IMG/VR virus record: IMGVR_UViG_3300029587_000019
Location: 1-40,932 of that record
From: a virus
Strand: one strand, 5' to 3'
Length of the DNA stretch: 40,932 nt
Shown: piece after piece, positions 504 through 22,834 of the stretch
Layout: every line of letters starts with the position of its first letter
Numbering within the stretch: position 1 is the first letter of the stretch
Notes under the pieces: generated by a model
Databases searched by the model: none
The model's input: the letters and a program-made list of their open reading frames with translations, nothing else
Told to the model about the DNA's origin: nothing
Program-made: the position numbers and the translations under genes

Positions 504-1982
504 TCATTTTTTATATCGCCGCGCAAAAAGGACAGACCCGTTATGCAACGCAATTATATCTGCATTAAACGATTTGCTTCTTGTTGCTCTCGCATCCAAT
601 ACATCAATTAGTTTTTGCTTATCAATCCCATCGGCGACATCAAAAATCACTCCGCCTTGGTTCCCGTGTATCTGCTTTATCGCTTTGCGCAGAGCGCTAT
701 CTGCGGCTTTTTCTGTGGAAATCGACTTTATTTCCCATTGCTTCCCTTTCCACAGCATGTCTGGCATTTTCATACCTGGCGTCTGCGATTCTTTCAGTAG
801 CACGAACTTCCCGCCGAATTGATCTCTGAGTTGGTTTGCAATTTCGATTTCGGTCTTGTGCCCCTTTATGTGATATCCGTTTTCGTATCGTACCTTACCC
901 ATGCGGGGATTAGCAGAATCTATGTATTTCTTCGTAACATCCTTTTCAGATTTTTCGCTACCCATGTGATATGTGGATAACTGTCTGCCACTGTATCCCT
1001 GCTTCGATGCTTCCCACTGTGCGTATGTCATGTCGGATATAAGCCCGTCGCGTGTTCTCCGCAGGCCGTATGATGTATCTACGCCATCCACGACTGAAAG
1101 CACCGTACAGCGGCAGTTATACACGAGGTAGCCGGGTGCGGAAGTATCGCCGGGAAACATGATCTCGTTACCATCGACTTTAAACGGCTTGTCAATGTCC
1201 ACCGTCTGGCCGTCTAACATGGCGTGGGCGTGTCGCGTTCTGCCGTCCAGCGTCGCAAGCCATTGTTTCTTGAGCTTAATGCCCATCTTCTCCGCCGCCG
1301 CGTAGCTGTCCATGCGTCCGGCGTTCTGCGCTCCGGTCACGGCAGTTCTGGCCGTGCGGATGGCGGAATCCCGGCTCATGGTGGTGATCCGCTTTTGCAA
1401 GTCATCCGCCATGCGCTTGATACTCAACCCCTGTAAGATGGAGCTGGTGACACTGGCCGTAATTTGCCTCTTGCCGTATGCGAGATCGATCCCGCGTTTC
1501 AGTGCTCTGTCCTTTGGATAGTACGGCATCAACCCCGGTTGCTCCACGATTAGGCGTTTCACCGTCTGCTCGTCCCACAGGTCAAAGCCCACGTCCCCAG
1601 CCACACTCTCGATGGTATACGCCGCATAGTTGCGGTTGAGGGAATAGATACCAGGAGTAGCATCATTGGTGTAAGACACCGCCACAGCGTTTGCATCGGT
1701 CACGCGGTGCGCCACCCTGTCACGCATGGCCTGATAGCGTTCCCCACGCCCGATCTGGTTCAGCCGCCATTGCTTATAGTCGGCCTCCGTCCATTCCTTA
1801 CCGTTTTGCACGGTGCCGATCAGAGCTTTCATTTCCTCGTCGCGCTTTTTGAATTGCTCAAAATACGCGTCGATGGTAGCTTGCAGCTCTTTCCCAGCCT
1901 CACGGTACAGCTTCGCAATGCGCCGTTCCAACTTCGCAAGTTCCTTGTCGGTCAGTTGATGCCCAAGATCACTGGTCGCCAT
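504..1982 (-). CDS. Head morphogenesis protein (SPP1 gp7 / Mu F family) fused to a ~150-aa C-terminal PD-(D/E)xK-like domain
   Basis: 492 aa. The MuF-like core ends at YLVYNCRCT. The C-terminal part contains EIEIANQL...MPDMLWKGKQWEIKS (E...PD...ExK). It sits immediately after the portal gene. Confidence 0.8.
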   Translation of the reverse strand: MATSDLGHQLTDKELAKLERRIAKLYREAGKELQATIDAYFEQFKKRDEEMKALIGTVQNGKEWTEADYKQWRLNQIGRGERYQAMRDRVAHRVTDANAVAVSYTNDATPGIYSLNRNYAAYTIESVAGDVGFDLWDEQTVKRLIVEQPGLMPYYPKDRALKRGIDLAYGKRQITASVTSSILQGLSIKRMADDLQKRITTMSRDSAIRTARTAVTGAQNAGRMDSYAAAEKMGIKLKKQWLATLDGRTRHAHAMLDGQTVDIDKPFKVDGNEIMFPGDTSAPGYLVYNCRCTVLSVVDGVDTSYGLRRTRDGLISDMTYAQWEASKQGYSGRQLSTYHMGSEKSEKDVTKKYIDSANPRMGKVRYENGYHIKGHKTEIEIANQLRDQFGGKFVLLKESQTPGMKMPDMLWKGKQWEIKSISTEKAADSALRKAIKQIHGNQGGVIFDVADGIDKQKLIDVLDARATRSKSFNADIIALHNGSVLFARRYKK

Positions 1983-3324
1983 CGCCGCTCACCCCCGGCG
2001 CGTCCGGATCTTCAATGCTCCGGTCAAGTTCTTCTGCCGCCTTCCGCTTTGCCATGTCCTCGTACTGGTCAATGTCGCCGTTGATGGTCAGCAGCTTCTT
2101 TGTGATGTATTCGTCATCGTAATACGCCGCGCCCAGAAGGATGTTCTGTGTTTCCTCGCTCTTGTTGATAATCTGGTTGCGCGTGTAACTCGGCTGGTCC
2201 TCAATGCCTGCCAAACGCAGAATCTCAACAATAAACCGCGTTACCTCGGATTCAAACTTGTCCGTCTTCAAATCCAACGGCACATAGCTGGCCTTGATCG
2301 CGGTCGCCGTCTGGTTCCCTGCGGATACCGCCGCCGCGTCAAAGCACTGGAAATCTTCGTACAGCTTTTTCTTGAGCATATCAATGGTGCTGCTGGTGCC
2401 CTCATAGGGAGCCTCGATGGTCTTACTTTCCACCTTTGCGCCATCATCGCCGTTGGCGTGGGCTACATGGGTGGTTTTCAGCCGTTCAACAAACTTTGCA
2501 TCGTCCAGATCCGTCATGCCCTCACAATTGGAAATCACCCAATAGATCAGATTGCCCTCGTCCACGTTGTTTACCATGTTGGAGGACGCCAAATCCAGCG
2601 CGTCAATGGTATTGCGCTTGCCGACAATCTCGGATAGGCACCGCTTGTTGTTTTTCAGCGGCACGATGGGGAAACTCGGATAATTCCCACCGTCATAGAT
2701 TTCGGTTTCGCCAACTTCGGCCTTGCGCTCGATCAGCTTATAACTGCGCTTCGGCTGCATGACGTCCATATTTTCGCCGCTGGGCTGGAAATACTCGGTA
2801 AAGCCGTCAATCTCATACAGCGTCGCTCTCAACGGCTTATCCTGTGCCACCTGCCAGAACCGGATACCAGCTTTCATTGCACCGTCTTCCTCATCGTAGA
2901 GAGGGACAAACTCAAGCAAGGAGAACACCCGCAAATGCGTCAGATCCCAGAAGCCGAAAGACACGCCTGCGATTTTCGCCTCACGCGCCGCATCCATGAC
3001 TTCCTGGTCAAAGTCCGGGCATAGCTTGTTTGGTGTTTCCTTCTCCGCGAAGGTCACGCCGTTGCCCAGAAGATACGATACCTCCTGATCCACCGCCAGA
3101 CCGAAGAATCGGCTGGCCAGCTTGTGGTTTGCCGTCCACATATCCGCGTGGGCGCGGCCCTGCATATCATAGATGATCTTTTCATAGCGGTTGATTGTCG
3201 GATTCAGCCCGTTGTAATATTCCTCAGCATCCGCCGCCGTCTTATATGCGTGGGATTCACGGTGCTCGTTGATCGCGCTGCGGATAAACTCCATCCGCGC
3301 CTTTTCGTCCTCGCCCACCGCCAC
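1969..3324 (-). CDS. Portal protein (SPP1 gp6-like)
   Basis: 451 aa between terL and the MuF gene, with a portal-like N-terminal pattern (YYNGLNPTINRYEKII). The start is uncertain: GTG at 3324 or ATG 30 nt downstream. Confidence 0.85.
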   Translation of the reverse strand: MAVGEDEKARMEFIRSAINEHRESHAYKTAADAEEYYNGLNPTINRYEKIIYDMQGRAHADMWTANHKLASRFFGLAVDQEVSYLLGNGVTFAEKETPNKLCPDFDQEVMDAAREAKIAGVSFGFWDLTHLRVFSLLEFVPLYDEEDGAMKAGIRFWQVAQDKPLRATLYEIDGFTEYFQPSGENMDVMQPKRSYKLIERKAEVGETEIYDGGNYPSFPIVPLKNNKRCLSEIVGKRNTIDALDLASSNMVNNVDEGNLIYWVISNCEGMTDLDDAKFVERLKTTHVAHANGDDGAKVESKTIEAPYEGTSSTIDMLKKKLYEDFQCFDAAAVSAGNQTATAIKASYVPLDLKTDKFESEVTRFIVEILRLAGIEDQPSYTRNQIINKSEETQNILLGAAYYDDEYITKKLLTINGDIDQYEDMAKRKAAEELDRSIEDPDAPGVSGDGDQ

Positions 3325-3340
3325 AAGGTCATTATATGTC

Positions 3341-4624
3341 TTAATCTCCGCTCACCCCTTGTCTCAGAATGGAAACATAATCAGAGCTGTCGCGTTTGTT
3401 CCACAACCGCTTTACGATGCTGGCCGCGCTGTCCGGCGCGTCATCATGCTCCACGTTCTCGTTGTAATCGCAAATCTGGTCGATATACGCATCATCCGTC
3501 CCGGCCACAAAAACCACATTGCGCCATTCCGCCTTGAGATAGCTTGTGATTTTAAGGGATTTGTTCATGCTTTCGTGATAGGTAACGGCCCGTTCCCCCT
3601 TCGCGCGCAACGCCTTTGCCAGATAGCCCTTGTCGGCGTTGGTCTCGCAGTAAATCACCCCAGCATTGAAAGACTTCCGAAGCCGGATGATCTCATCCAT
3701 GCAATCGTCCACATGCTTGTGCCAAAGCCGCCCATAGAGGTAATATGTCGTTCCCTTCTTCCGGGCGACCGTAAACGCCGTGTAGTCATCGCCGCCGTAT
3801 GCCGCGTCGATGTGGCAAATGCCCTGCTCTGCAAGGCAAGGCTCCGCGCCCATTTGCGGCGTGTCAAAGATCACATCATCACTGGCAATGTGCCGCAGCT
3901 CGTAGTTTGCTGCAAACAGGGATGACGTCATAGACGATTTAATGGTTTGCAACTCATCCCCGGAGATCAACCCAGTTGAATAGCAATCGTACTTTTCGAT
4001 ATTCGGCATCATGGAAAACGCGTCTTCCTTGTGCCAGGGCGTTCCGGTGTTAAAAATGCGCCCGCCACGATTGCGGATATTCTGTAACTCCTGATAGATC
4101 GTTTTTGTATGGTCTCGCTCTGCGCGGGAAATGCGATCCTGCACGTTTACAATATCGTCCGTAAATATGCGGTCAAAATGCTTGCCGGTCAAGGACCCGT
4201 TCACGCCGCACGCCACAAGCTGGCTCGTGCCCTTGTTGTCCGCTGCCAGATTCGTGGAAATCTCCGTCGCGGATACCGTTGTCAGGATCAGCGGTTTTCC
4301 GTGGATCTTCTCGCACAGTGCCTCCATGTATGGCGATAGCAGCAGATTTCGCACCTGCCGCACAACCTCTTTCACGTCCGCATCCGTTTTTCGCATAAAC
4401 AGCGTTTTGAGATTCGGCAGAAGGACGATGATCTCCGCCAGCGCAATCGAAACGCACGTTGTTTTGTAGCTGCCACGATGCGCCTGCAAGGTTTTGTCCT
4501 CACTACCGCGCACCATATCCTGTATCCATGCGTTGTGCAGCGCGCCCAGCTTATCAAACCCAACGGCATGACCGAACGCAATGGGATTATGTATCAGCAG
4601 TTCCGCCGCTTGTATCCGCGTCAT
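3341..4624 (-). CDS. terL: Terminase large subunit
   Basis: 427 aa. It has a Walker-A-like HRGSYKTT, overlaps the end of terS, and is followed by the portal gene. Confidence 0.9.
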   Translation of the reverse strand: MTRIQAAELLIHNPIAFGHAVGFDKLGALHNAWIQDMVRGSEDKTLQAHRGSYKTTCVSIALAEIIVLLPNLKTLFMRKTDADVKEVVRQVRNLLLSPYMEALCEKIHGKPLILTTVSATEISTNLAADNKGTSQLVACGVNGSLTGKHFDRIFTDDIVNVQDRISRAERDHTKTIYQELQNIRNRGGRIFNTGTPWHKEDAFSMMPNIEKYDCYSTGLISGDELQTIKSSMTSSLFAANYELRHIASDDVIFDTPQMGAEPCLAEQGICHIDAAYGGDDYTAFTVARKKGTTYYLYGRLWHKHVDDCMDEIIRLRKSFNAGVIYCETNADKGYLAKALRAKGERAVTYHESMNKSLKITSYLKAEWRNVVFVAGTDDAYIDQICDYNENVEHDDAPDSAASIVKRLWNKRDSSDYVSILRQGVSGD

Positions 4625-4967
4625 TCTGCATCACCATCTTCTCCAACTCGTCCAATGCAATGCCCTTCGCGTCCGTCACCGCCACGTCCACGCTGTCACG
4701 CTGCCCCAAAAATTGTTTACCGAGGAAGATCGCCATTGTAGCGTTCTTTTCAGCCAATCGCCATTGGCTCCGACGCAGTGAAATTTTCCCCGCGCCGCGC
4801 TTTTGTTTAAATACCTCGGAGAAACTGGCATGATAGGTGCGTTTACACCAACCATCCAGTGTTTTATCAGTTACATCAAACCAACCGCAGATTTCCTCAA
4901 GCGTGCATTGCAGGCCGCAGAGGTTCTCGAACTGCTTCTGATCTATTTCCTTTCTTGGCCTTGCCAT
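4587..4967 (-). CDS. terS: Terminase small subunit (HTH type)
   Basis: 126 aa with N-terminal MARPRKEIDQKQFENLCGLQCTLEEICGWF. RBS AAAGGAGGG. Directly upstream of terL. Confidence 0.75.
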   Translation of the reverse strand: MARPRKEIDQKQFENLCGLQCTLEEICGWFDVTDKTLDGWCKRTYHASFSEVFKQKRGAGKISLRRSQWRLAEKNATMAIFLGKQFLGQRDSVDVAVTDAKGIALDELEKMVMQNDADTSGGTADT

Positions 4968-5073
4968 ACGCGCCCTCCTTTCTCTGCTGGCGTTTAATAA
5001 ACTTCTCCATGTCCCGCTTTAGATATGGGCTATTTGTTTTGGCAATAATTGCCTGTGCTTCTTCAATCGTCAT
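4897..5073 (-). CDS. Hypothetical small protein (58 aa), uncertain
   Basis: ATGA-type overlap with the stop of the upstream gene. The 3' 71 nt overlap terS in another frame. Confidence 0.25.
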   Translation of the reverse strand: MTIEEAQAIIAKTNSPYLKRDMEKFIKRQQRKEGAYGKAKKGNRSEAVREPLRPAMHA

Positions 5074-6298
5074 GCCCAAGCCCTGCCACGATTTTCTTTT
5101 CTCTGTCGGAAAGTTCCCACACGTTTGTATTACATACTCTTACTTTCTCCGCAGCAGCCTTTTCCGCAGCAGCCTTTTCCGCAGCAGCCTTTTCCGATAG
5201 CAAAAAGCCGGAGCCGAACAAGCCTTTCCCCGACGCTTTCTGTGCGTCAAGCGCGCGGATAAAATGTGCATCTCTTTCTCTAATTTCAAGGCTTACGCCG
5301 TGAGCTGCCATATAACACAGCATCGTTGCTGTCAAAACCTCATCTGGATATGAGTATTTCGGCAGTTCTCTGTGCAACTTTTTGAGATTCTTTTTGTTCT
5401 CGTCATCCAGTATTTCTCTTAAATCAGCGGCAGCGACAATCTTATTGCCCCCCATGTTGGTAACAAACGACGTATTGACAGACGCGCCGTTTTCATACAC
5501 AACTCCGCACCCGCACGCCACATAGTTTGCCGAGCCGCGCATAATTCCGAGGAGTGTAAGCGTTGGAGCGAACAGAAAGAAGTTGATTCTCTTGCTTGTG
5601 TACCACTCGCAGATTTCTGAAATAATGGAAAAAGGCGGATTGTCTATCACAACACACCCAGAAGGGTATTTCTCGCTTTTATAATCTCCGCCCGGATAAA
5701 ACGGGCGCACAATTGCGGCATTGCCAATTTCGTACTTCTCAGCCGCCCAATCTCTTACTGCTTCGTAGATGTTATCCGGCGTGTAGCAATCGTCCGTTGT
5801 TTTCTTCGCCTCGAACTTTTCAAGGAAAGCTTGGTAGTCCTCATCATCGTCTGAAAGCTCTCCACGCTCCATCCTTTCCCGAAACTCCTGCTCTCTTTGC
5901 TCGTTGGTCATTTCTTCAATTTCGGATTCGTCCAGCTCCGGAAAAGAAAAGTCAAAATCAAACGCCGATAAATCCAACTCCGGCAGTTCGCCTTTCAGCA
6001 GGTCAAAGTCCCAATCGCTCTCGTTGCTCTTGTTGTCCACCAACCGCAGGGCGTTCACTTGCTCCGGTGTCAGATCGTCCACGCAGACACAGGGCACTTC
6101 TTCCATGCCCAGCTTTTTTGCCGCCAGAGCGCGGCAGTGGCCGATTACAATCACGCCGTCACGGTCAATCACAATCGGCTGTACAAAGCCGTACTGCTTG
6201 ATGCTCTCCGCAACGTTGTTGATTTGCCGCTTATCATGCTTTTTTGCGTTTGCGGCATACGGCACAATATCCGCAAGCCGCCGTTTTGTGATTTCCAT
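5063..6298 (-). CDS. ParB/Srx-like N-terminal domain fused to a putative N6-adenine DNA methyltransferase
   Basis: 411 aa. The N-terminus has ParB-like ...VIVIGHCRALAAKKLG. The C-terminal half has VVIDNPPFS (NPPF motif IV-like). An (EKAAA)x3 repeat lies near the C-terminus. Confidence 0.7.
   Translation of the reverse strand: MEITKRRLADIVPYAANAKKHDKRQINNVAESIKQYGFVQPIVIDRDGVIVIGHCRALAAKKLGMEEVPCVCVDDLTPEQVNALRLVDNKSNESDWDFDLLKGELPELDLSAFDFDFSFPELDESEIEEMTNEQREQEFRERMERGELSDDDEDYQAFLEKFEAKKTTDDCYTPDNIYEAVRDWAAEKYEIGNAAIVRPFYPGGDYKSEKYPSGCVVIDNPPFSIISEICEWYTSKRINFFLFAPTLTLLGIMRGSANYVACGCGVVYENGASVNTSFVTNMGGNKIVAAADLREILDDENKKNLKKLHRELPKYSYPDEVLTATMLCYMAAHGVSLEIRERDAHFIRALDAQKASGKGLFGSGFLLSEKAAAEKAAAEKAAAEKVRVCNTNVWELSDREKKIVAGLGHDD
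5151..5195. repeat. Exact 15-bp tandem repeat x3 (gcagcagccttttcc), in frame
   Basis: Read directly. It encodes EKAAA x3 in the ParB-MTase C-terminus. Confidence 0.95.
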
Positions 6299-6329: not shown

Positions 6330-6782
6330 TTACTCCACGATCATCCAGTCATCGGCAAGCATATCCGCCTGCGATGCCAGCCAGCCGAGCTGCACGCCGG
6401 ATGTGCCGACAAAAGCAAGCGCTTTGTTACCGATAGCTTCGTGAATGGCGTTGATCACCTCATGCGCAGCATTCTCATAGCTGATGCGCTCCGCAAGCTC
6501 GACATGCTGATTCTTGCCATTCCAACCACGACGGGCAATTCTCTTCCCTTTCTTTGCCGCTTCAATAGCCAAGCCAAAGCTCATGCCGTCGGTGGGGCGG
6601 TACGCTTCCTCGAACACGTCCTTAGGGCTAAAACTCTCGTAGCCGTCCTGGTAACGAACCTTGTACCCCTCTTCCGCAGGCTCCATGCTTCTGGGGATCA
6701 GCTCGTTCGCATCGTAGACCTTGCCACCCTTGCGAATAGCAGGGGCCGCTTCAATGATTTTCGTGCCAATATACTTTTTCAT
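6330..6782 (-). CDS. DUF2829-family protein (Tad2-like candidate anti-Thoeris sponge) with an N-terminal extension
   Basis: 150 aa with MSFGLAIEAAKKGKRIARRGWNGK ... GWLASQADMLADDWMIVE. This is the DUF2829 signature as I recall it. Confidence 0.7.
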   Translation of the reverse strand: MKKYIGTKIIEAAPAIRKGGKVYDANELIPRSMEPAEEGYKVRYQDGYESFSPKDVFEEAYRPTDGMSFGLAIEAAKKGKRIARRGWNGKNQHVELAERISYENAAHEVINAIHEAIGNKALAFVGTSGVQLGWLASQADMLADDWMIVE

Positions 6783-6988
6783 TTCGCATAACCTCTTAAC
6801 ATTATTTTGCTACCGGCCCCTGCTCCTTGGTTTTCTCGCCGCTTTACTTGCTTATTGTCAAAATCAGGGATATGCAACCGCGCCTTACCCATCAATCTTT
6901 CACACGCCGTTGACTTCTCTGATTGTTGTAAAAACTTTTTTACGCTTGAAGCAGTCACAATAAAAGACGCGTTTCCCCCTTTTGCCAT
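6779..6988 (-). CDS. Hypothetical 69-aa protein, uncertain
   Basis: Strong RBS (AACAGGAGGAAGTC-ATG) and an ATGA overlap with the next gene. However, it contains one copy of the 26-nt repeat. Confidence 0.35.
   Translation of the reverse strand: MAKGGNASFIVTASSVKKFLQQSEKSTACERLMGKARLHIPDFDNKQVKRRENQGAGAGSKIMLRGYAK
6805..6830 (-). repeat. 26-nt direct repeat, copy 2 (minus strand CCAAGGAGCAGGGGCCGGTAGCAAAA)
   Basis: 22 of 26 positions match the copy at 7001-7026 by hand alignment. Confidence 0.8.
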
Positions 6989-7615
6989 GACTTCCTCCTG
7001 TTTTGCTACCAGCCCCCACCCCTTGGCCTTACATAGCAGACTTTACCCGCCCCGCAGTCTCTACCATTACCCCACGCATAAGCGCAAGCCTTCGATTTTG
7101 AGGGGCATACACGCTGTCTCTTCCAGCCGTCAAGATTGGTTTGCATAACCTCCGTGCTCAAAGACACGAGCCGCTATCTGGCACGGCATTGCAGTCCTGC
7201 CCTGCTTTAGCGCTTCAGGGAAAGTCCCCGTCACTCGCTGTGGTCTCCCCTTACGGGGCACCTATGCCGCATATCTCCGCAGTGAGCCGGTCGGCGCTCC
7301 GGCATCTCCAACAATGCGAGTATTTGCGGTCTCGCCTCCGGGCGGCAGATTGCCTTTCTGCCCTCCACTGCGGTACTGCCGTCTAAAACTGCTGCCACCG
7401 TGCGCAATCACAGTGACCTGCTGGAACTTCGGCAGCGTAGTTTGTCCAAATGTCCCCTCTGGGACACATCGTTGAGAGGTGCGAGGGGTCCTATACCCAA
7501 CCGGAATTGCACCGGGGCATCAAGGGCAAGTACCAGTTGCCGGAGATGAGCTGCTTTTACAGGCCGCAGCTTATATATTCTTGGAGCGAGGACGCATCAC
7601 CCGAAACGCTCCCCG
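6989..7615 (-). ncRNA. Candidate large structured non-coding RNA. The class is unverified; the context resembles ROOL/GOLLD. Strand is inferred.
   Basis: No ORF of 60 aa or more on the gene-bearing strand. Many GC-rich hairpins, e.g. GGAGCG...CGCTCC, TGTCCC-agag-GGGACA, CCCC-gtaa-GGGG, GCTGCC...GGCAGC, CCGTGC...GCACGG. Directly 3' of a tRNA-like element. Confidence 0.45.
7001..7026 (-). repeat. 26-nt direct repeat, copy 1 (minus strand CCAAGGGGTGGGGGCTGGTAGCAAAA)
   Basis: Read directly. Followed by CAGGAGG-ATG of ORF 6988. Confidence 0.8.
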
Positions 7616-7618
7616 CCA

Positions 7619-7690
7619 TGGTGCAGACGGCAGGATTTGAACCTGCGCATACCTCCTGGTGCGGTGCTCTGCCTACTGAGCTACGTCTGC
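7619..7690 (-). tRNA. tRNA-like element or pseudo-tRNA with encoded CCA. Acceptor, D and T arms are canonical, but there is no canonical anticodon arm.
   Basis: GCAGACG-TA-GCTC-AGTAGGCA-GAGC-A-[CCGCACCAGGAGGTATGC]-GCAGG-TTCAAAT-CCTGC-CGTCTGC-A-CCA. The central 18 nt contain no U33-type loop and are 3-4 nt too short. Confidence 0.55.
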
Positions 7691-7837
7691 ATACCCCCGG
7701 CATCCGCCGGGGTCAGGAGGAAAGAAAGGATGGATGGAAAGAATGAGGATACGGATATAACCCCGCACCCTCATTCTGACACATATTTTTCTGCGCTTGC
7801 CCCGAATTGGGGGCAAAGACCAATTTTTTTTGCGATA

Positions 7838-8068
7838 CTATAAAGGTTTACTCTCTCGTTCGCCCTCGTCCCATGCAAGCTCATCCAAGCTGACGTGGTA
7901 ATGATTTGCTATCAGCTTCAACTGGCTGAGAGCCGGTTCGTTTTCCCCGGTTTCGTACTTCCGTAGCGTATCATGCCCGATCCCAATCAGCTCCGCTTTC
8001 ACTCTCATGCTTTTAGCAGGCCGCTCAGATTCCCTTAATTTCCGCAGCCGTTCCGGGAAGGTACTCAC
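7838..8068 (-). CDS. XRE-family HTH regulator
   Basis: 76 aa with LRKLRESERPAKSMRVKAELIGIGHDTLRKYETGENEP. Confidence 0.75.
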   Translation of the reverse strand: MSTFPERLRKLRESERPAKSMRVKAELIGIGHDTLRKYETGENEPALSQLKLIANHYHVSLDELAWDEGERESKPL

Positions 8069-8271
8069 ATAACCACCTCACATAGCCGGAAATTCTCTAC
8101 CACAGGGCCTCCCGCCGTTTCTGTCCGCACACTGACAAATCGGCCCTTTGGGTGGATGTAAATTACCTCTCCGCGCCGGAACGGATACATCTGCTCATAC
8201 GTCGGGTGCTGCCGCTCCAGCTGGGACGGTATGGACTTGAATCTGGCCCGAACCACCTGTCCAAGTTTCAT
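8065..8271 (-). CDS. Hypothetical protein (68 aa)
   Basis: ATGA overlap with the upstream gene. The internal start MKLGQVV was chosen over the longer ORF. Confidence 0.5.
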   Translation of the reverse strand: MKLGQVVRARFKSIPSQLERQHPTYEQMYPFRRGEVIYIHPKGRFVSVRTETAGGPVVENFRLCEVVM

Positions 8272-21057: not shown

Positions 21058-21492
21058 ATGACAATTCAGGAAGTTTGTAAGGCGAAACGTAACGCTTTGG
21101 GTATGACCATTCAGGACATAGCTGAAGCATCGGGAATTCCGCCGTCTACCGTCAACAATTTCTTTACCCATGCTTCCAAGGCCCCCTATATCTCCACGGT
21201 TGGGCCAATATGCGCCGTCCTTGGCGTGTCGCTGGATGAATTTTACGGCATCGGAGATCATCTGACGGCCAGTGAGGAAACGTTGCAAGCGGAAAAGGAC
21301 GGACTAGAACACCGCCTTGAGAATAAGCGGCAGACCATCGGCCTGATGGACACAGAACTGTGCAATCTTTGGCACTCCGTGAAGCTATACAGGTGGATCA
21401 TACTCGGTTTGTCACTATTGATCATCGGGCTTTTTGCCTGGTGCGTTTGGGTTGACATCCATTGTGCTAACTATGGATTTTGGAGGGGATAA
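21058..21492 (+). CDS. Membrane-anchored XRE-family HTH protein
   Basis: 144 aa. N-terminal HTH (LGMTIQDIAEASGIPPSTVNNF), C-terminal TM (WIILGLSLLIIGLFAWCVWV). RBS AAGGAGG. Confidence 0.7.
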   Translation: MTIQEVCKAKRNALGMTIQDIAEASGIPPSTVNNFFTHASKAPYISTVGPICAVLGVSLDEFYGIGDHLTASEETLQAEKDGLEHRLENKRQTIGLMDTELCNLWHSVKLYRWIILGLSLLIIGLFAWCVWVDIHCANYGFWRG

Positions 21493-21493
21493 C

Positions 21494-22834
21494 ATGTGCC
21501 AAAAAATAGTGGTCACTCTACCAAATAATCTACGCATCCGTGTAGCACTGTACATCAGGGTATCGACCGAAGAACAGGCGAAGCACGGCCTGTCCCTGGC
21601 AGACCAGCGGGAGGCTCTGATTGCATATGCCGCCGCACACGGCATGGAGGTTGTGGGCATTTACGAGGACGCCGGAATCAGCGCCAGAAAGCCGTATAAA
21701 AAGCGTCCGGCCTTGATGCGCCTGCTTGATGATTGCCGCGCCGGGAAAATCGACACCATCCTTTTTGTCAAGCTGGATAGGTGGTTTCGGAATGTGGCGG
21801 GGTACTACGCCGTGCAAGAGGTTCTCGACAAAAATCATGTGGATTGGCAGGCCATCAGAGAGGACTACGAAACGCGGACTGCATCAGGGCGATTGAAGGT
21901 CAATATTATGTTGTCGGTAGCGCAGGACGAAGCTGACCGCACATCGGAGCGCATTAAGGCCATCAACGAGGGCAAGAGGGCAAAGGGCCAGCCCACCAAC
22001 GGGAAAACTCCTATCGGAATCTGCGTGAAGAACCGGCGCTACGCCATTGATGAAGAAACCGCAGATGCGGCGCGAGATATGTTCCCAGCCTTTATACGGC
22101 TGCAAAGCATCCTTGCGCTAAGGCGGTATATGGCAACGGAGTGGGGGATCAAACGCTCGTACAACAAATACAAGGATGCGTTGAAAAGCCGCCTGTACTT
22201 AGGTGAGGCGTTCGGCGTGGAAAACGCATTGCCTGCACTTGTCGATCAAGAAACCTTTGACCTTGCTGGGAAAATCTTGGAACGGCGAAGCCAGCGGAAC
22301 GCCAGTGCGGATCGAATATATTTGTTTACCGGAATTCTCCGTTGCCGGGAGTGCGGTAGAAATATGCAGCCGGAGACTGTAAAGCAGGTGTACAAGTACT
22401 ACCGATGCAGAACGCACACACTTGATCCAGCCGACTGCCCGCACATCCTCAGAATCCGAGAAGATGTGCTTGAGGATTACCTTCTGCGGGAATTTGAGGG
22501 GATCGCAAAAAAGTATTACTCCAAATCAAAAACCGCAGAAAAAAAGCAGCCCAAAACGGCGGAGCAAATCAAGCGGAAAATGCAAAAACTGAAAGACCTG
22601 TATCTGTCGGATTTGATTGAAATCGAAGAATACAAAAAAGACTATACGGAATTGAAACAGCAGCTCGCGGCAATAAACCCGGAGCCTATAAAAGAATTTG
22701 ACCTTGAAACATTACGGCGAGAGTTGAAGGAATATCCTGATTTAGACCGGCAGGCAAAAAAGGAATTTTGGGTACGCACAATCCAGCGCATCGACGCAGA
22801 CAATGACGGTGCGTTTTTTGTAACGCCAAGTTAG
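21494..22834 (+). CDS. int: Large serine recombinase (integrase)
   Basis: 446 aa with RVALYIRVSTEEQ (catalytic Ser motif), recombinase and zinc-ribbon parts (CRECG...C...C), and a C-terminal coiled coil. Confidence 0.9.
   Translation: MCQKIVVTLPNNLRIRVALYIRVSTEEQAKHGLSLADQREALIAYAAAHGMEVVGIYEDAGISARKPYKKRPALMRLLDDCRAGKIDTILFVKLDRWFRNVAGYYAVQEVLDKNHVDWQAIREDYETRTASGRLKVNIMLSVAQDEADRTSERIKAINEGKRAKGQPTNGKTPIGICVKNRRYAIDEETADAARDMFPAFIRLQSILALRRYMATEWGIKRSYNKYKDALKSRLYLGEAFGVENALPALVDQETFDLAGKILERRSQRNASADRIYLFTGILRCRECGRNMQPETVKQVYKYYRCRTHTLDPADCPHILRIREDVLEDYLLREFEGIAKKYYSKSKTAEKKQPKTAEQIKRKMQKLKDLYLSDLIEIEEYKKDYTELKQQLAAINPEPIKEFDLETLRRELKEYPDLDRQAKKEFWVRTIQRIDADNDGAFFVTPS

What the first reader, a model, noticed from the sequence alone, without database searches (positions are those of the whole stretch)
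6989..7837. About 850 bp without a credible ORF, dense in GC-rich hairpins, containing a tRNA-like element: candidate large structured phage RNA
Genes in this genome are otherwise tightly packed, often with overlapping stop and start codons. Between the XRE gene (stop at 7838) and ORF 6988, the gene-bearing minus strand has no ORF of 60 aa or more. The plus-strand ORFs listed there have no RBS or family signal. On the minus strand I can draw many local helices: GGAGCG(18 nt)CGCTCC, AGCTGC..GCAGCT, TGTCCC-agag-GGGACA, GCTGCC(34 nt)GGCAGC, GGCAG-aaaggcaat-CTGCC, GCCGG-agcgccga-CCGGC, CCCC-gtaa-GGGG (a GNRA loop) and CCGTGC..GCACGG. A tRNA-like element sits immediately 5' of them. From the literature, large ornate RNAs of prophages (the GOLLD and ROOL classes) are typically several hundred nt long and frequently lie next to tRNA genes. 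I cannot confirm class membership from memory of their consensus. It could equally be an undescribed RNA. One caveat on strand: a weak terminator-like hairpin with a T8 run (7797-7831) is oriented for the plus strand.
Basis: partly seen in the sequence, partly recalled or inferred. Interest (0 to 1): 0.8.

Follow-up and report, generated by a model that had tools for sequence, protein, structure and literature searches.

The report
Phage array of small structured RNAs
The 850-base gene-free stretch is not one big RNA but a shuffled string of small RNA genes in a gut phage: two tRNA look-alikes, a known "skipping-rope" RNA, and a stand-alone copy of the RNA that bacteria use to switch off their AbiF suicide toxin, which the phage may use to disarm that defence.

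Summary
Window 6989-7837 has no minus-strand ORF of 60 aa or more. It folds better than shuffles on the gene strand and starts with a tRNA-like element.

The single-large-RNA reading (GOLLD/ROOL) does not hold. Rfam gives no such hit. In 74 sibling phages with the same flanking XRE gene, the gap varies from 344 to 1403 nt because discrete cassettes are swapped.

The window carries, on the minus strand:
- a constant leader;
- an anticodon-less tRNA-like RNA ending in CCA;
- a hairpin cassette;
- a solitary abiF-motif hairpin;
- a spacer plus a skipping-rope RNA (RF02924, above threshold);
- a 92-nt cloverleaf ending in CCA, absent from Rfam and supported by covariation;
- a poorly supported last cassette.

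Siblings carry ordinary tRNA genes in the same slot.

The 24-nt core of the abiF-like hairpin occurs in 66 bacterial species genomes. It lay directly upstream of Abi_2 toxin genes in 25 of 28 loci tested. In 103 of 106 phage contexts no terminator-like U-run follows it; a tRNA or tRNA-like 5' end usually does.

Best reading: a tRNA-punctuated array of small RNAs, at least one a candidate antitoxin mimic. Expression and function are untested.

The parts
7691..7837 (-). Leader A. Constant in all siblings. Three strong hairpins at 7797-7816, 7740-7777 and 7695-7712. The second is followed by a U/C-rich tract.
   Evidence: Present at full length in nearly all of the 74 sibling arrays. MFE -59.8 kcal/mol, z -5.55. 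Its CCUCCUG tract is complementary to the CAGGAGG loop of B but does not covary with it.
7619..7690 (-). Cassette B: anticodon-less tRNA-like RNA. It has a 7-bp acceptor stem, D and T arms, discriminator A and an encoded CCA. The anticodon arm is replaced by the 13-nt CCGCACCAGGAGG.
   Evidence: Rfam RF00005 53.5 bits (threshold 29). ARAGORN finds none. The T stem covaries, GCAGG/CCUGC versus GCUGG/CCAGC. The middle segment is swapped among siblings: 13-nt, 17-nt 'Ile-AAU' with C33, or a different body.
7499..7618 (-). Cassette C: four local hairpins. Function unknown. It travels with D in this lineage and is replaced by other cassettes in siblings.
   Evidence: The first hairpin shows G-C/G-U/A-U exchanges at 3 pairs in 27 distinct copies. 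Fold z is only -0.81.
7449..7498 (-). Cassette D: solitary abiF-motif hairpin (core 7453-7488). AGGAC-CCCCUC-G-CAC-CUCUCAACGAU-GUG-UCCCA-GAGGGG-ACAUU.
   Evidence: Rfam RF03085 gives only 21 bits (threshold 37), but both helices and the 11-nt loop match the consensus. The same 24-nt core is in 66 bacterial species genomes; in 25 of 28 loci tested it lies directly upstream of Abi_2 genes, and in 2 upstream of DUF3800 genes. The outer stem is 92.4% paired against 56-64% in slid controls, with many different complementary stems. No Abi_2 gene in the window.
7373..7448 (-). Cassette E: spacer and hairpin that always accompanies the skipping-rope RNA.
   Evidence: E and F are gained or lost together. 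E-type sequence after D is followed by a skipping-rope hit in other phages. Two pairs show compensatory changes.
7278..7372 (-). Cassette F: skipping-rope RNA. An outer stem encloses three hairpins.
   Evidence: Rfam RF02924 45.3 bits (threshold 36.7), E 1e-7. Compensatory changes occur in the outer stem (G-C/A-U, U-A/C-G) and in the central hairpin. Relatives score 45-51 bits.
7179..7270 (-). Cassette G: 92-nt cloverleaf RNA not in Rfam. 7-bp acceptor GCGGCAU/AUGCCGU, discriminator and CCA. D-like arm with a GUAA loop. A long arm in the anticodon position with a conserved internal loop AGUGA/AAG and a variable tip. T-like arm GCAG-GGCAGGA-CUGC.
   Evidence: The MFE fold is the cloverleaf, z -2.42. 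In 45 distinct copies 96.7% of cells are paired, 13 of 28 pairs change on both sides, and slid controls give 35-42%. L122 has an entirely different complementary acceptor stem. At least 117 copies in IMG/VR. No Rfam match at E<=10.
7058..7175 (-). Cassette H: weakly supported last cassette. Its 3' part, together with the junction (7046-7109), resembles DUF3800-VIII.
   Evidence: Rfam RF03075 36.0 bits (threshold 40.2), with many non-canonical pairs. Only 3 distinct copies and no covariation; fold z 0.0. Replaced by X7, X4 or X1 in most siblings, and a tested X7-type sibling (L011) lacks this hit.
7001..7057 (-). Junction I: constant block before the next gene. It contains a 16-mer repeated before the following gene.
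   Evidence: Present in nearly all siblings. TTTTGCTACCRGCCCC occurs at 7001-7016 and 6805-6820.

Best explanation
The region is a modular array of independent small-RNA genes. It sits in the tRNA slot of a temperate siphovirus-like gut phage, probably of Oscillospiraceae. The slot lies between an XRE-type gene and accessory genes (a Tad2-like protein and a ParB-domain protein) that precede the terminase.

Shown:
- Cassettes are exchanged between sibling phages, with junctions right after the CCA ends.
- Two cassettes (B and G) are tRNA-shaped RNAs with an acceptor stem and encoded CCA but no anticodon loop.
- One cassette (F) is a skipping-rope RNA.
- One cassette (D) carries the same hairpin core that precedes Abi_2 (AbiF) toxin genes in many bacteria, yet has no toxin gene here.

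Inferred mechanism:
- The array is transcribed with or after the XRE gene as one precursor.
- RNase P and the tRNA 3'-end enzymes cut at the tRNA-like units, as in a tRNA operon, and release the interspersed RNAs with defined ends.
- The tRNA-like 5' end replaces the terminator that ends the hairpin RNA in bacterial abiF loci.
- The freed abiF-type hairpin binds host AbiF and keeps it inhibited during infection, as an antitoxin mimic.
- By analogy, the skipping-rope RNA and the cargo hairpin of G may be partners or decoys of other host RNA-binding effectors. This last step is the weakest.
For: Mosaic structure. In 74 siblings the gap is 344-1403 nt. Architecture strings show independent cassettes, and siblings carry canonical tRNAs (Trp, Ser, Gly, Thr) in the same slot.

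Family matches, all on the minus strand. tRNA scores 53.5 bits and skipping-rope 45.3 bits.

Cloverleaf G. Covariation supports the fold: 13 of 28 pairs change on both sides. G-U pairs are valid only on this strand. In L106, G is followed by an intrinsic terminator in this orientation.

acceptor+NCCA scan. It finds only B and G, plus an overlapping alternative 5' stem for B; shuffles average 0.5 hits.

Hairpin D in bacteria. The core occurs in 66 bacterial species. A U-run and an ORF follow; 25 of 28 ORFs tested are Abi_2 and 2 are DUF3800.

Hairpin D in phages. Of 106 distinct phage contexts only 3 have a U-run. At least 67 are followed within a few nt by a tRNA, G or a B-type unit, and 10 by E plus skipping-rope.

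No toxin gene. No Abi_2 or DUF3800 gene is in the window or in 199 viral loci.

Published biology. The abiF-motif RNA RCd22 binds and neutralises AbiF, also in trans; the stem structure matters and its sequence does not (PMC12373285). A hairpin in the phage sk1 cos site inhibits AbiF (PMC13064643). Phage pseudo-ToxI is a precedent for RNA antitoxin mimicry (PMC3475682).

Neighbourhood. The genes just downstream include a Tad2-like protein (anti-Thoeris family) and a ParB-domain protein.
Against: - No expression data. Promoter, transcript ends and processing are all inferred, and the promoter scan found nothing.
- D scores 21 bits against an Rfam threshold of 37. It is a single motif, whereas RCd22 has two.
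- In this window D is followed by E, not directly by a tRNA-like unit, so the RNase P 3'-end argument applies here only indirectly.
- Whether the host of this phage has an AbiF with this RNA subtype is unknown.
- C and H have no statistical or comparative support as functional RNAs.
- The viral samples are dominated by one metagenome and one phage supergroup, so the counts are not independent events.
- The T arm of G was part of the search pattern, so its invariance is uninformative.
- A solitary antitoxin-like RNA could serve other ends than counter-defence.
Confidence: 0.6

Rival explanations
1. One large ornate structured RNA of several hundred nucleotides (GOLLD/ROOL-like or a new class), with the tRNA-like element as part of it or next to it.
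For: The whole minus strand folds better than shuffles, z -3.97.
Against: No GOLLD or ROOL hit at E<=10. Cassettes are independently present, absent or replaced in 74 siblings with identical flanks; the shortest sibling array is 344 nt. In the global MFE the modules fold locally as they do in isolation. No long-range helix is conserved.
Confidence: 0.03
2. A decaying tRNA gene cluster. The tRNA-like units and hairpins are pseudogene debris kept only as recombination substrate, with no RNA function.
For: B has lost its anticodon arm. ARAGORN rejects it and some siblings have still other deletions. H and C show no support. Siblings have intact tRNAs in the slot.
Against: G keeps non-tRNA features invariant: the AGUGA/AAG internal loop and the GGCAGGA loop. 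Its helices covary in 45 distinct copies. D keeps a 24-nt core identical to bacterial abiF loci across phyla. The skipping-rope RNA is a curated family with covariation. B keeps its acceptor, D and T arms and its CCA, with compensatory T-stem changes.
Confidence: 0.1
3. A real small-RNA array whose role is not counter-defence. Examples: sRNAs regulating phage or host genes, RNAs acting in translation, or D controlling an AbiF carried by a co-resident prophage (superinfection or addiction logic).
For: Skipping-rope function is unknown (PMC5737381). AbiF systems are themselves prophage-borne in C. difficile (PMC12373285). tRNA genes in the same slot suggest a translation-related island.
Against: RCd22 did not act on mRNAs in gel shifts, and its main partner was the AbiF protein (PMC12373285). 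The adjacent genes include a Tad2-like protein and a ParB-domain protein. Bacterial copies have a toxin gene and phage copies are solitary.
Confidence: 0.22
4. The region encodes small proteins, on either strand.
For: Plus-strand ORFs of 81, 98 and 68 aa and minus-strand ORFs up to 58 aa exist.
Against: No Pfam match for the two tested. The ORFs cross cassette junctions that differ among siblings. Substitutions preserve base pairs rather than frames.
Confidence: 0.02

Closest known systems
abiF RNA motif (Rfam RF03085; RCd22 of C. difficile, AbiFr of Prevotellaceae), the RNA antitoxin of the AbiF/Abi_2 HEPN toxin
   Same: Same two-helix hairpin with the loop CUCUCAACGAU. The same 24-nt core and the ACAGGA / ACAU flanks are found directly upstream of Abi_2 genes in bacteria.
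   Different: - No toxin gene and no terminator after it.
- One motif rather than two.
- Embedded in a phage tRNA-like array.
- Below the Rfam threshold (21 against 37 bits).
Phage RNA mimics of defence RNAs: pseudo-ToxI of phage PhiTE (PMC3475682), the AbiF-inhibiting hairpin in the phage sk1 cos site (PMC13064643), and RNA anti-CRISPRs made of solitary repeats (Racr; from my own knowledge, mentioned in PMC12737573)
   Same: A phage carries a stand-alone copy or look-alike of the RNA partner of a host toxin or effector.
   Different: - Here it is only inferred; no assay was done.
- The sk1 hairpin does not resemble the AbiF RNA, whereas D does.
- Delivery inside a tRNA-like cassette array was not described in the papers read here.
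skipping-rope RNA (Rfam RF02924; Weinberg et al. 2017, PMC5737381)
   Same: Full-length match above threshold, with the same outer stem and hairpins.
   Different: - The published examples are followed by terminators and associate with particular nearby protein genes.
- Here G follows directly, and no DUF3800 or PBECR gene was detected in the phage.
Phage tRNA gene clusters that co-encode small stable RNAs (for example the T4 tRNA region; from my own knowledge), and tRNA-like 3'-end processing signals (MALAT1-mascRNA; PMC6152437 describes a plant case)
   Same: tRNA-shaped units with acceptor stems and CCA, interleaved with other small RNAs in one orientation. The tRNA-like 5' end lies 1-3 nt after the upstream hairpin in most phage copies of D.
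   Different: - The window has no decoding tRNA at all.
- Processing is inferred, not shown.
GOLLD and ROOL large prophage RNAs
   Same: Prophage location near tRNA-type genes.
   Different: - No covariance-model match.
- Not a single conserved unit but a mosaic of units of 50-170 nt.

Membership tests
GOLLD / ROOL | Match to the family covariance model | tested here: not met
   No hit at the gathering threshold on the whole window, nor at E<=10 on 6700-8100.
GOLLD / ROOL | One conserved structured unit of several hundred nt | tested here: not met
   Cassettes are gained, lost and swapped independently; the gap is 344-1403 nt in siblings.
tRNA (RF00005) | Covariance-model score at or above the gathering score | tested here: met
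   53.5 bits against 29 at 7622-7690 (-).
tRNA (RF00005) | 5-bp anticodon stem with a 7-nt loop and U33, giving a readable anticodon | tested here: not met
   A 13-nt segment replaces the 17-nt arm, and ARAGORN finds no gene. The longer sibling variants have C33 and A34.
tRNA (RF00005) | 7-bp acceptor stem, discriminator and 3' CCA | tested here: met
   GCAGACG/CGUCUGC + A + CCA.
skipping-rope (RF02924) | Covariance-model score at or above the gathering score | tested here: met
   45.3 bits against 36.7, full length 1-80.
skipping-rope (RF02924) | Helices kept by compensatory change | tested here: met
   Outer-stem pairs switch G-C/A-U and U-A/C-G, and a central-hairpin pair switches C-G/U-A, in 12 distinct copies.
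skipping-rope (RF02924) | Rho-independent terminator at the 3' end (PMC5737381) | tested here: not met
   Seven nt after the outer stem, cloverleaf G begins. There is no U-run.
skipping-rope (RF02924) | Association with a particular nearby protein gene (PMC5737381; gene family given only in a supplement not held) | tested here: inconclusive
   No DUF3800 or PBECR domain in the ORFs scanned, which cover most ORFs of 90 aa or more. One unrelated metagenome match lies next to a PBECR3 gene.
abiF RNA motif (RF03085) | Covariance-model score at or above the gathering score | tested here: not met
   21.0 bits against 37 in the window; 22.4 in sibling L011.
abiF RNA motif (RF03085) | The same RNA element located directly upstream of Abi_2 (AbiD/F) genes | tested here: met
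   The exact 24-nt core is in 66 bacterial species genomes. 25 of 28 downstream ORFs are PF07751, with E down to 6e-57.
abiF RNA motif (RF03085) | Outer stem kept by structure rather than sequence | tested here: met
   92.4% paired against 56-64% in slid controls over 103 distinct copies, with many different complementary stems.
AbiF type III toxin-antitoxin system | Cognate Abi_2 toxin gene next to the RNA | tested here: not met
   No Abi_2 by Pfam or tblastn in the window or in 199 viral loci.
AbiF type III toxin-antitoxin system | The RNA binds and neutralises the toxin | not testable with these tools
   Needs co-expression or binding assays.
DUF3800-VIII (RF03075) | Covariance-model score at or above the gathering score | tested here: not met
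   36.0 bits against 40.2, with many non-canonical pairs. Absent from a tested sibling (L011) that has another last cassette.

The most novel reading that the evidence does not exclude
Phages of this gut lineage keep an exchangeable RNA anti-defence island in their tRNA slot. Each cassette would be a stand-alone copy or scaffolded mimic of the RNA partner of a different host RNA-controlled toxin: AbiF for D, and DUF3800- or PBECR-linked effectors for skipping-rope. Cloverleaf G would be a natural tRNA scaffold presenting a decoy hairpin. All would be matured by the host's own tRNA-processing enzymes. On this reading skipping-rope and related orphan RNA motifs are antitoxin-type RNAs.
Probability: 0.25. 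Interest if true: 0.85.

Novelty: new variant of a known kind. Interest (0 to 1): 0.66.

Why it matters
RNA-based counter-defence by phages is known from only a few cases: pseudo-ToxI, RNA anti-CRISPRs and the sk1 hairpin. AbiF is the proposed ancestor of Cas13, and its antitoxin RNA was characterised only in 2025.

A clear split emerged here. Bacterial copies of the hairpin have a terminator and a toxin gene; phage copies are solitary and usually abut a tRNA-like unit. This gives a directly testable candidate for a natural anti-AbiF RNA.

It also suggests how phages mature such RNAs without a terminator.

The work adds a widespread cloverleaf RNA (G) that is not in Rfam. It also gives the long-orphan skipping-rope motif a recurrent genomic context: phage tRNA-like arrays, in the order abiF hairpin, E, skipping-rope, G.

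For annotation, such gene-free gaps before the terminase genes should be read as RNA cassette arrays, not as one RNA.

Tried and rejected
- GOLLD/ROOL membership: no Rfam hit.
- Pairing between the leader tract CCUCCUG and the loop CAGGAGG of B: the leader is invariant while the loop changes, so there is no covariation.
- DUF3800-VIII reading of 7046-7109: below threshold, spans a cassette junction, and is absent from a tested sibling (L011) with another last cassette. Kept only as a weak lead.
- First bacterial-genome scan for G with a 27-nt pattern: 0 hits. The pattern included the variable acceptor strand, so absence from bacteria is not established.
- Metagenome scan with a degenerate skipping-rope pattern: only 12 hits, 11 from the same phage lineage. 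It was uninformative on protein association apart from one PBECR3 neighbour.
- Search of the annotated phage collection: two unannotated partial matches only.
- The supplement of Weinberg 2017, which names the skipping-rope-associated gene, is not held.
- Literature searches on phage tRNA-like RNAs gave nothing specific.
- Protein-neighbour clustering around G showed only the usual phage genes: terminase small and large subunits, ParB-methylase and the Tad2-like protein.
Full report
OBSERVATION

The stretch 6989-7837 lies between a 69-aa ORF (6779-6988, minus strand, no family) and an XRE-type HTH gene (7838-8068, minus strand; PF01381). On the gene strand the longest ORF inside it is 58 aa. 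The plus-strand ORFs of 81 and 98 aa have no Pfam match. The minus strand folds to -347.6 kcal/mol (z -3.97) and the plus strand to -309.2 (z -2.54), each against only 20 shuffles. A tRNA-like element is present at 7622-7690 on the minus strand. It scores 53.5 bits on the Rfam tRNA model, but ARAGORN finds no tRNA in the whole window.

WHAT RFAM SEES

All matches lie on the minus strand:
- tRNA, 7622-7690, above threshold.
- skipping-rope RNA RF02924, 7278-7372, 45.3 bits against a threshold of 36.7.
- DUF3800-VIII, 7046-7109, 36.0 against 40.2, below threshold.
- abiF RF03085, 7453-7488, 21.0 against 37, below threshold.

There is no GOLLD or ROOL match even at E<=10.

THE REGION IS A MOSAIC, NOT ONE RNA

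A scan of IMG/VR with the XRE protein returned 80 loci with 96-100% identical XRE. In 74 of them I could delimit the gap between XRE and a constant junction block before the next gene. Its length ranges from 344 to 1403 nt.

Decomposing these gaps into blocks gives a combinatorial architecture:
- A constant 147-nt leader (A).
- The tRNA-like unit (B).
- C+D, or X5+D, or other blocks.
- Optionally E+F. F is the skipping-rope RNA, and E and F always travel together.
- G.
- H, or X7, X4 or X1.
- The constant junction (I).

ARAGORN finds ordinary tRNA genes in the alternative blocks of siblings: Trp-CCA, Ser-AGA, Ser-GCU, Gly-CCC and Thr-CGU. Block boundaries fall right after the CCA of B and of G. 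A single large RNA is not compatible with this.

THE TWO tRNA-SHAPED UNITS

B (7619-7690)
- It keeps a 7-bp acceptor stem, the D arm, a T arm with a compensatory A-U/U-A switch, discriminator A and an encoded CCA.
- The anticodon arm is a 13-nt segment in most siblings, including the window.
- Others have a 17-nt arm with C33 and A34, or an unrelated body between the same acceptor strands.
- It cannot decode.

G (7179-7270)
- It folds by itself into a cloverleaf: acceptor GCGGCAU/AUGCCGU, discriminator and CCA.
- It has a D-like arm closed by GUAA.
- A long arm sits in the anticodon position, with a conserved internal loop (AGUGA/AAG) and a variable tip.
- Its T-like arm has the loop GGCAGGA.
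- A pattern scan found at least 117 copies in IMG/VR.
- On 45 distinct copies, 96.7% of cells pair and 13 of 28 pairs change on both sides. Slid controls give 35-42%.
- One copy (L122) has a wholly different complementary acceptor stem.
- The frequent G-U pairs fix the strand.
- The T arm was part of the search pattern, so its invariance says nothing.
- G has no Rfam match.
- In L106 it ends an array and is followed by an intrinsic terminator.

A scan for a 7-bp stem followed by NCCA finds only B and G, plus an overlapping alternative 5' stem for B. Shuffled sequence averages 0.5 hits.

THE abiF-TYPE HAIRPIN D (7449-7498)

The Rfam score is low. Even so, both helices and the 11-nt loop CUCUCAACGAU match the consensus.

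In the phage loci D behaves as an independent cassette, and its outer stem covaries: CCCCUC/GAGGGG, CCCUCC/GGAGGG, CCCCGC/GCGGGG and CUCCCC/GGGGAG.

I scanned one genome per bacterial species with the 24-nt core. It matched in 66 species of Clostridia, Negativicutes, Treponema, Synergistaceae, Bacteroidales and Actinomycetota. In most of these the hairpin is followed by a U-run and, 15-57 nt later, by an ORF. Of 28 such ORFs, 25 are Abi_2 (PF07751, E down to 6e-57) and 2 are DUF3800. The flanks ACAGGA and ACAU were not in the pattern and are conserved in both bacteria and phages. D is therefore the same element as the RNA that precedes abiF genes.

Published work shows what this RNA does. It (RCd22, AbiFr) binds the AbiF HEPN toxin and neutralises it, also in trans. 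The stem structure is needed but its sequence is not (PMC12373285; summaries of Zilberzwige-Tal 2025 in PMC12737573 and PMC13064643).

In phage contigs the picture is reversed. Of 106 distinct contexts only 3 have a U-run. The rest break down as follows:
- 27 are followed within a few nt by G.
- 23 by a canonical tRNA.
- 17 by a B-type unit.
- 6 by another stem-closed unit.
- 10 by E and then a skipping-rope RNA.
- 20 by other sequences, several of which look like tRNA 5' halves.

Neither the window nor 199 viral loci encode Abi_2 or DUF3800.

CONTEXT

The window is a nearly complete temperate siphovirus-like genome. It encodes:
- a serine integrase (21434-22834);
- a CI-like repressor;
- SSB and methylases;
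- terminase small subunit 4587-4967, large subunit 3341-4624, portal 1969-3324, and tail genes.

Directly downstream of the array are a Tad2-like protein (PF11195, an anti-Thoeris family) and a ParB-domain protein. A Dysosmobacter MAG carries a related Tad2-like gene and a B unit, which points to Oscillospiraceae hosts. The order D, E, skipping-rope, G recurs in other phages.

HOW IT MOST LIKELY WORKS

Shown:
- An exchangeable array of small RNA genes in one orientation.
- tRNA-shaped units with CCA.
- A solitary abiF-type hairpin.

Inferred:
- The array is made as a precursor and cut by RNase P and the tRNA 3'-end enzymes at the tRNA-like units.
- In phages the tRNA-like 5' end sits where the terminator sits in bacterial abiF loci, so it would define the 3' end of the hairpin RNA.
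- The hairpin then acts as an antitoxin mimic that keeps host AbiF inhibited.

Precedents are pseudo-ToxI (PMC3475682) and the AbiF-inhibiting sk1 hairpin (PMC13064643).

Weaker inference: the skipping-rope RNA, and the cargo hairpin that G presents on a tRNA-like frame, have analogous protein targets. Weinberg et al. linked skipping-rope to DUF3800-related genes (PMC5737381). I found the abiF-type hairpin in front of DUF3800 genes in two genomes, and one skipping-rope-pattern match next to a PBECR3 nuclease gene.

LIMITS

- There are no expression data, and no promoter was found.
- In this window D is followed by E rather than by a tRNA-like unit.
- C and H lack support.
- The phage samples are phylogenetically narrow.
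- Whether this phage's host carries an AbiF with this RNA subtype is unknown.

VERDICT

The interpretation as a large ornate RNA is not.

What is there is a cassette array containing:
- one known RNA family (skipping-rope);
- a tRNA-derived unit;
- a new cloverleaf RNA;
- a solitary copy of the AbiF antitoxin RNA.

The last is a concrete, testable candidate for RNA-based counter-defence.

Noticed in passing
L208 5683-6420 and L246 474-1211 (bacterial genome loci): The same abiF-type hairpin core sits 33 nt upstream of a DUF3800 gene (PF12686, E 3e-12) instead of an Abi_2 gene. This suggests DUF3800 proteins can be paired with this RNA.
   Followed up: partly
L358 7-460 (metagenome contig Ga0302173_10032720): An AT-rich match to the skipping-rope pattern lies 30 nt downstream of a PBECR3 nuclease gene (PF18812, E 1e-25), beside yicC- and remA-like genes as judged from their N-terminal sequences (not scanned). 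It is a single case and was not scored with the Rfam model.
   Followed up: partly
window 6805-6820 and 7001-7016: The exact 16-mer TTTTGCTACCRGCCCC (plus strand) precedes, on the gene strand, the ribosome-binding sites of two consecutive accessory genes. In many siblings ORF 6779-6988 is missing and the Tad2-like gene follows the first copy directly. It looks like a gene-cassette junction.
   Followed up: partly
window 6330-6782 (-) and 5063-6298 (-): A Tad2-like (anti-Thoeris family) protein with an N-terminal extension, and a ParB_N-domain protein, lie right after the RNA array. Sibling phages carry a variant of the latter with a different C-terminal part.
   Followed up: no
L056 4711-4834 (sibling array, right after G): A 124-nt unit is closed by a 7-bp stem ACCACAC/GTGTGGU followed by A and CCA. 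It is a further non-tRNA-length RNA with a tRNA-like end, and its 5' sequence is common after G in other phages.
   Followed up: no
L041, L049, L050 (position of B): A variant of B has the same acceptor strands (GCAGACG/CGUCUGC) but an unrelated interior. This indicates recombination inside the tRNA-like frame.
   Followed up: no
L115 and L139 (copies of D): Some abiF-type hairpins carry an extra small hairpin inserted in the conserved loop, between CUCUC and the rest.
   Followed up: no
window 7797-7831: The hairpin plus T8 run is oriented for the plus strand and lies in the constant leader. It would stop transcription running antisense to the array. It was not called by the terminator scan because 7 nt separate the stem from the T run.
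   Followed up: no
window 7740-7777 (-): A 16-bp hairpin in the leader is followed by a U/C-rich tract (UUUCCAUCCAUCCUUUCUUUCC). It may be a leaky terminator or attenuator between the XRE gene and the array.
   Followed up: no
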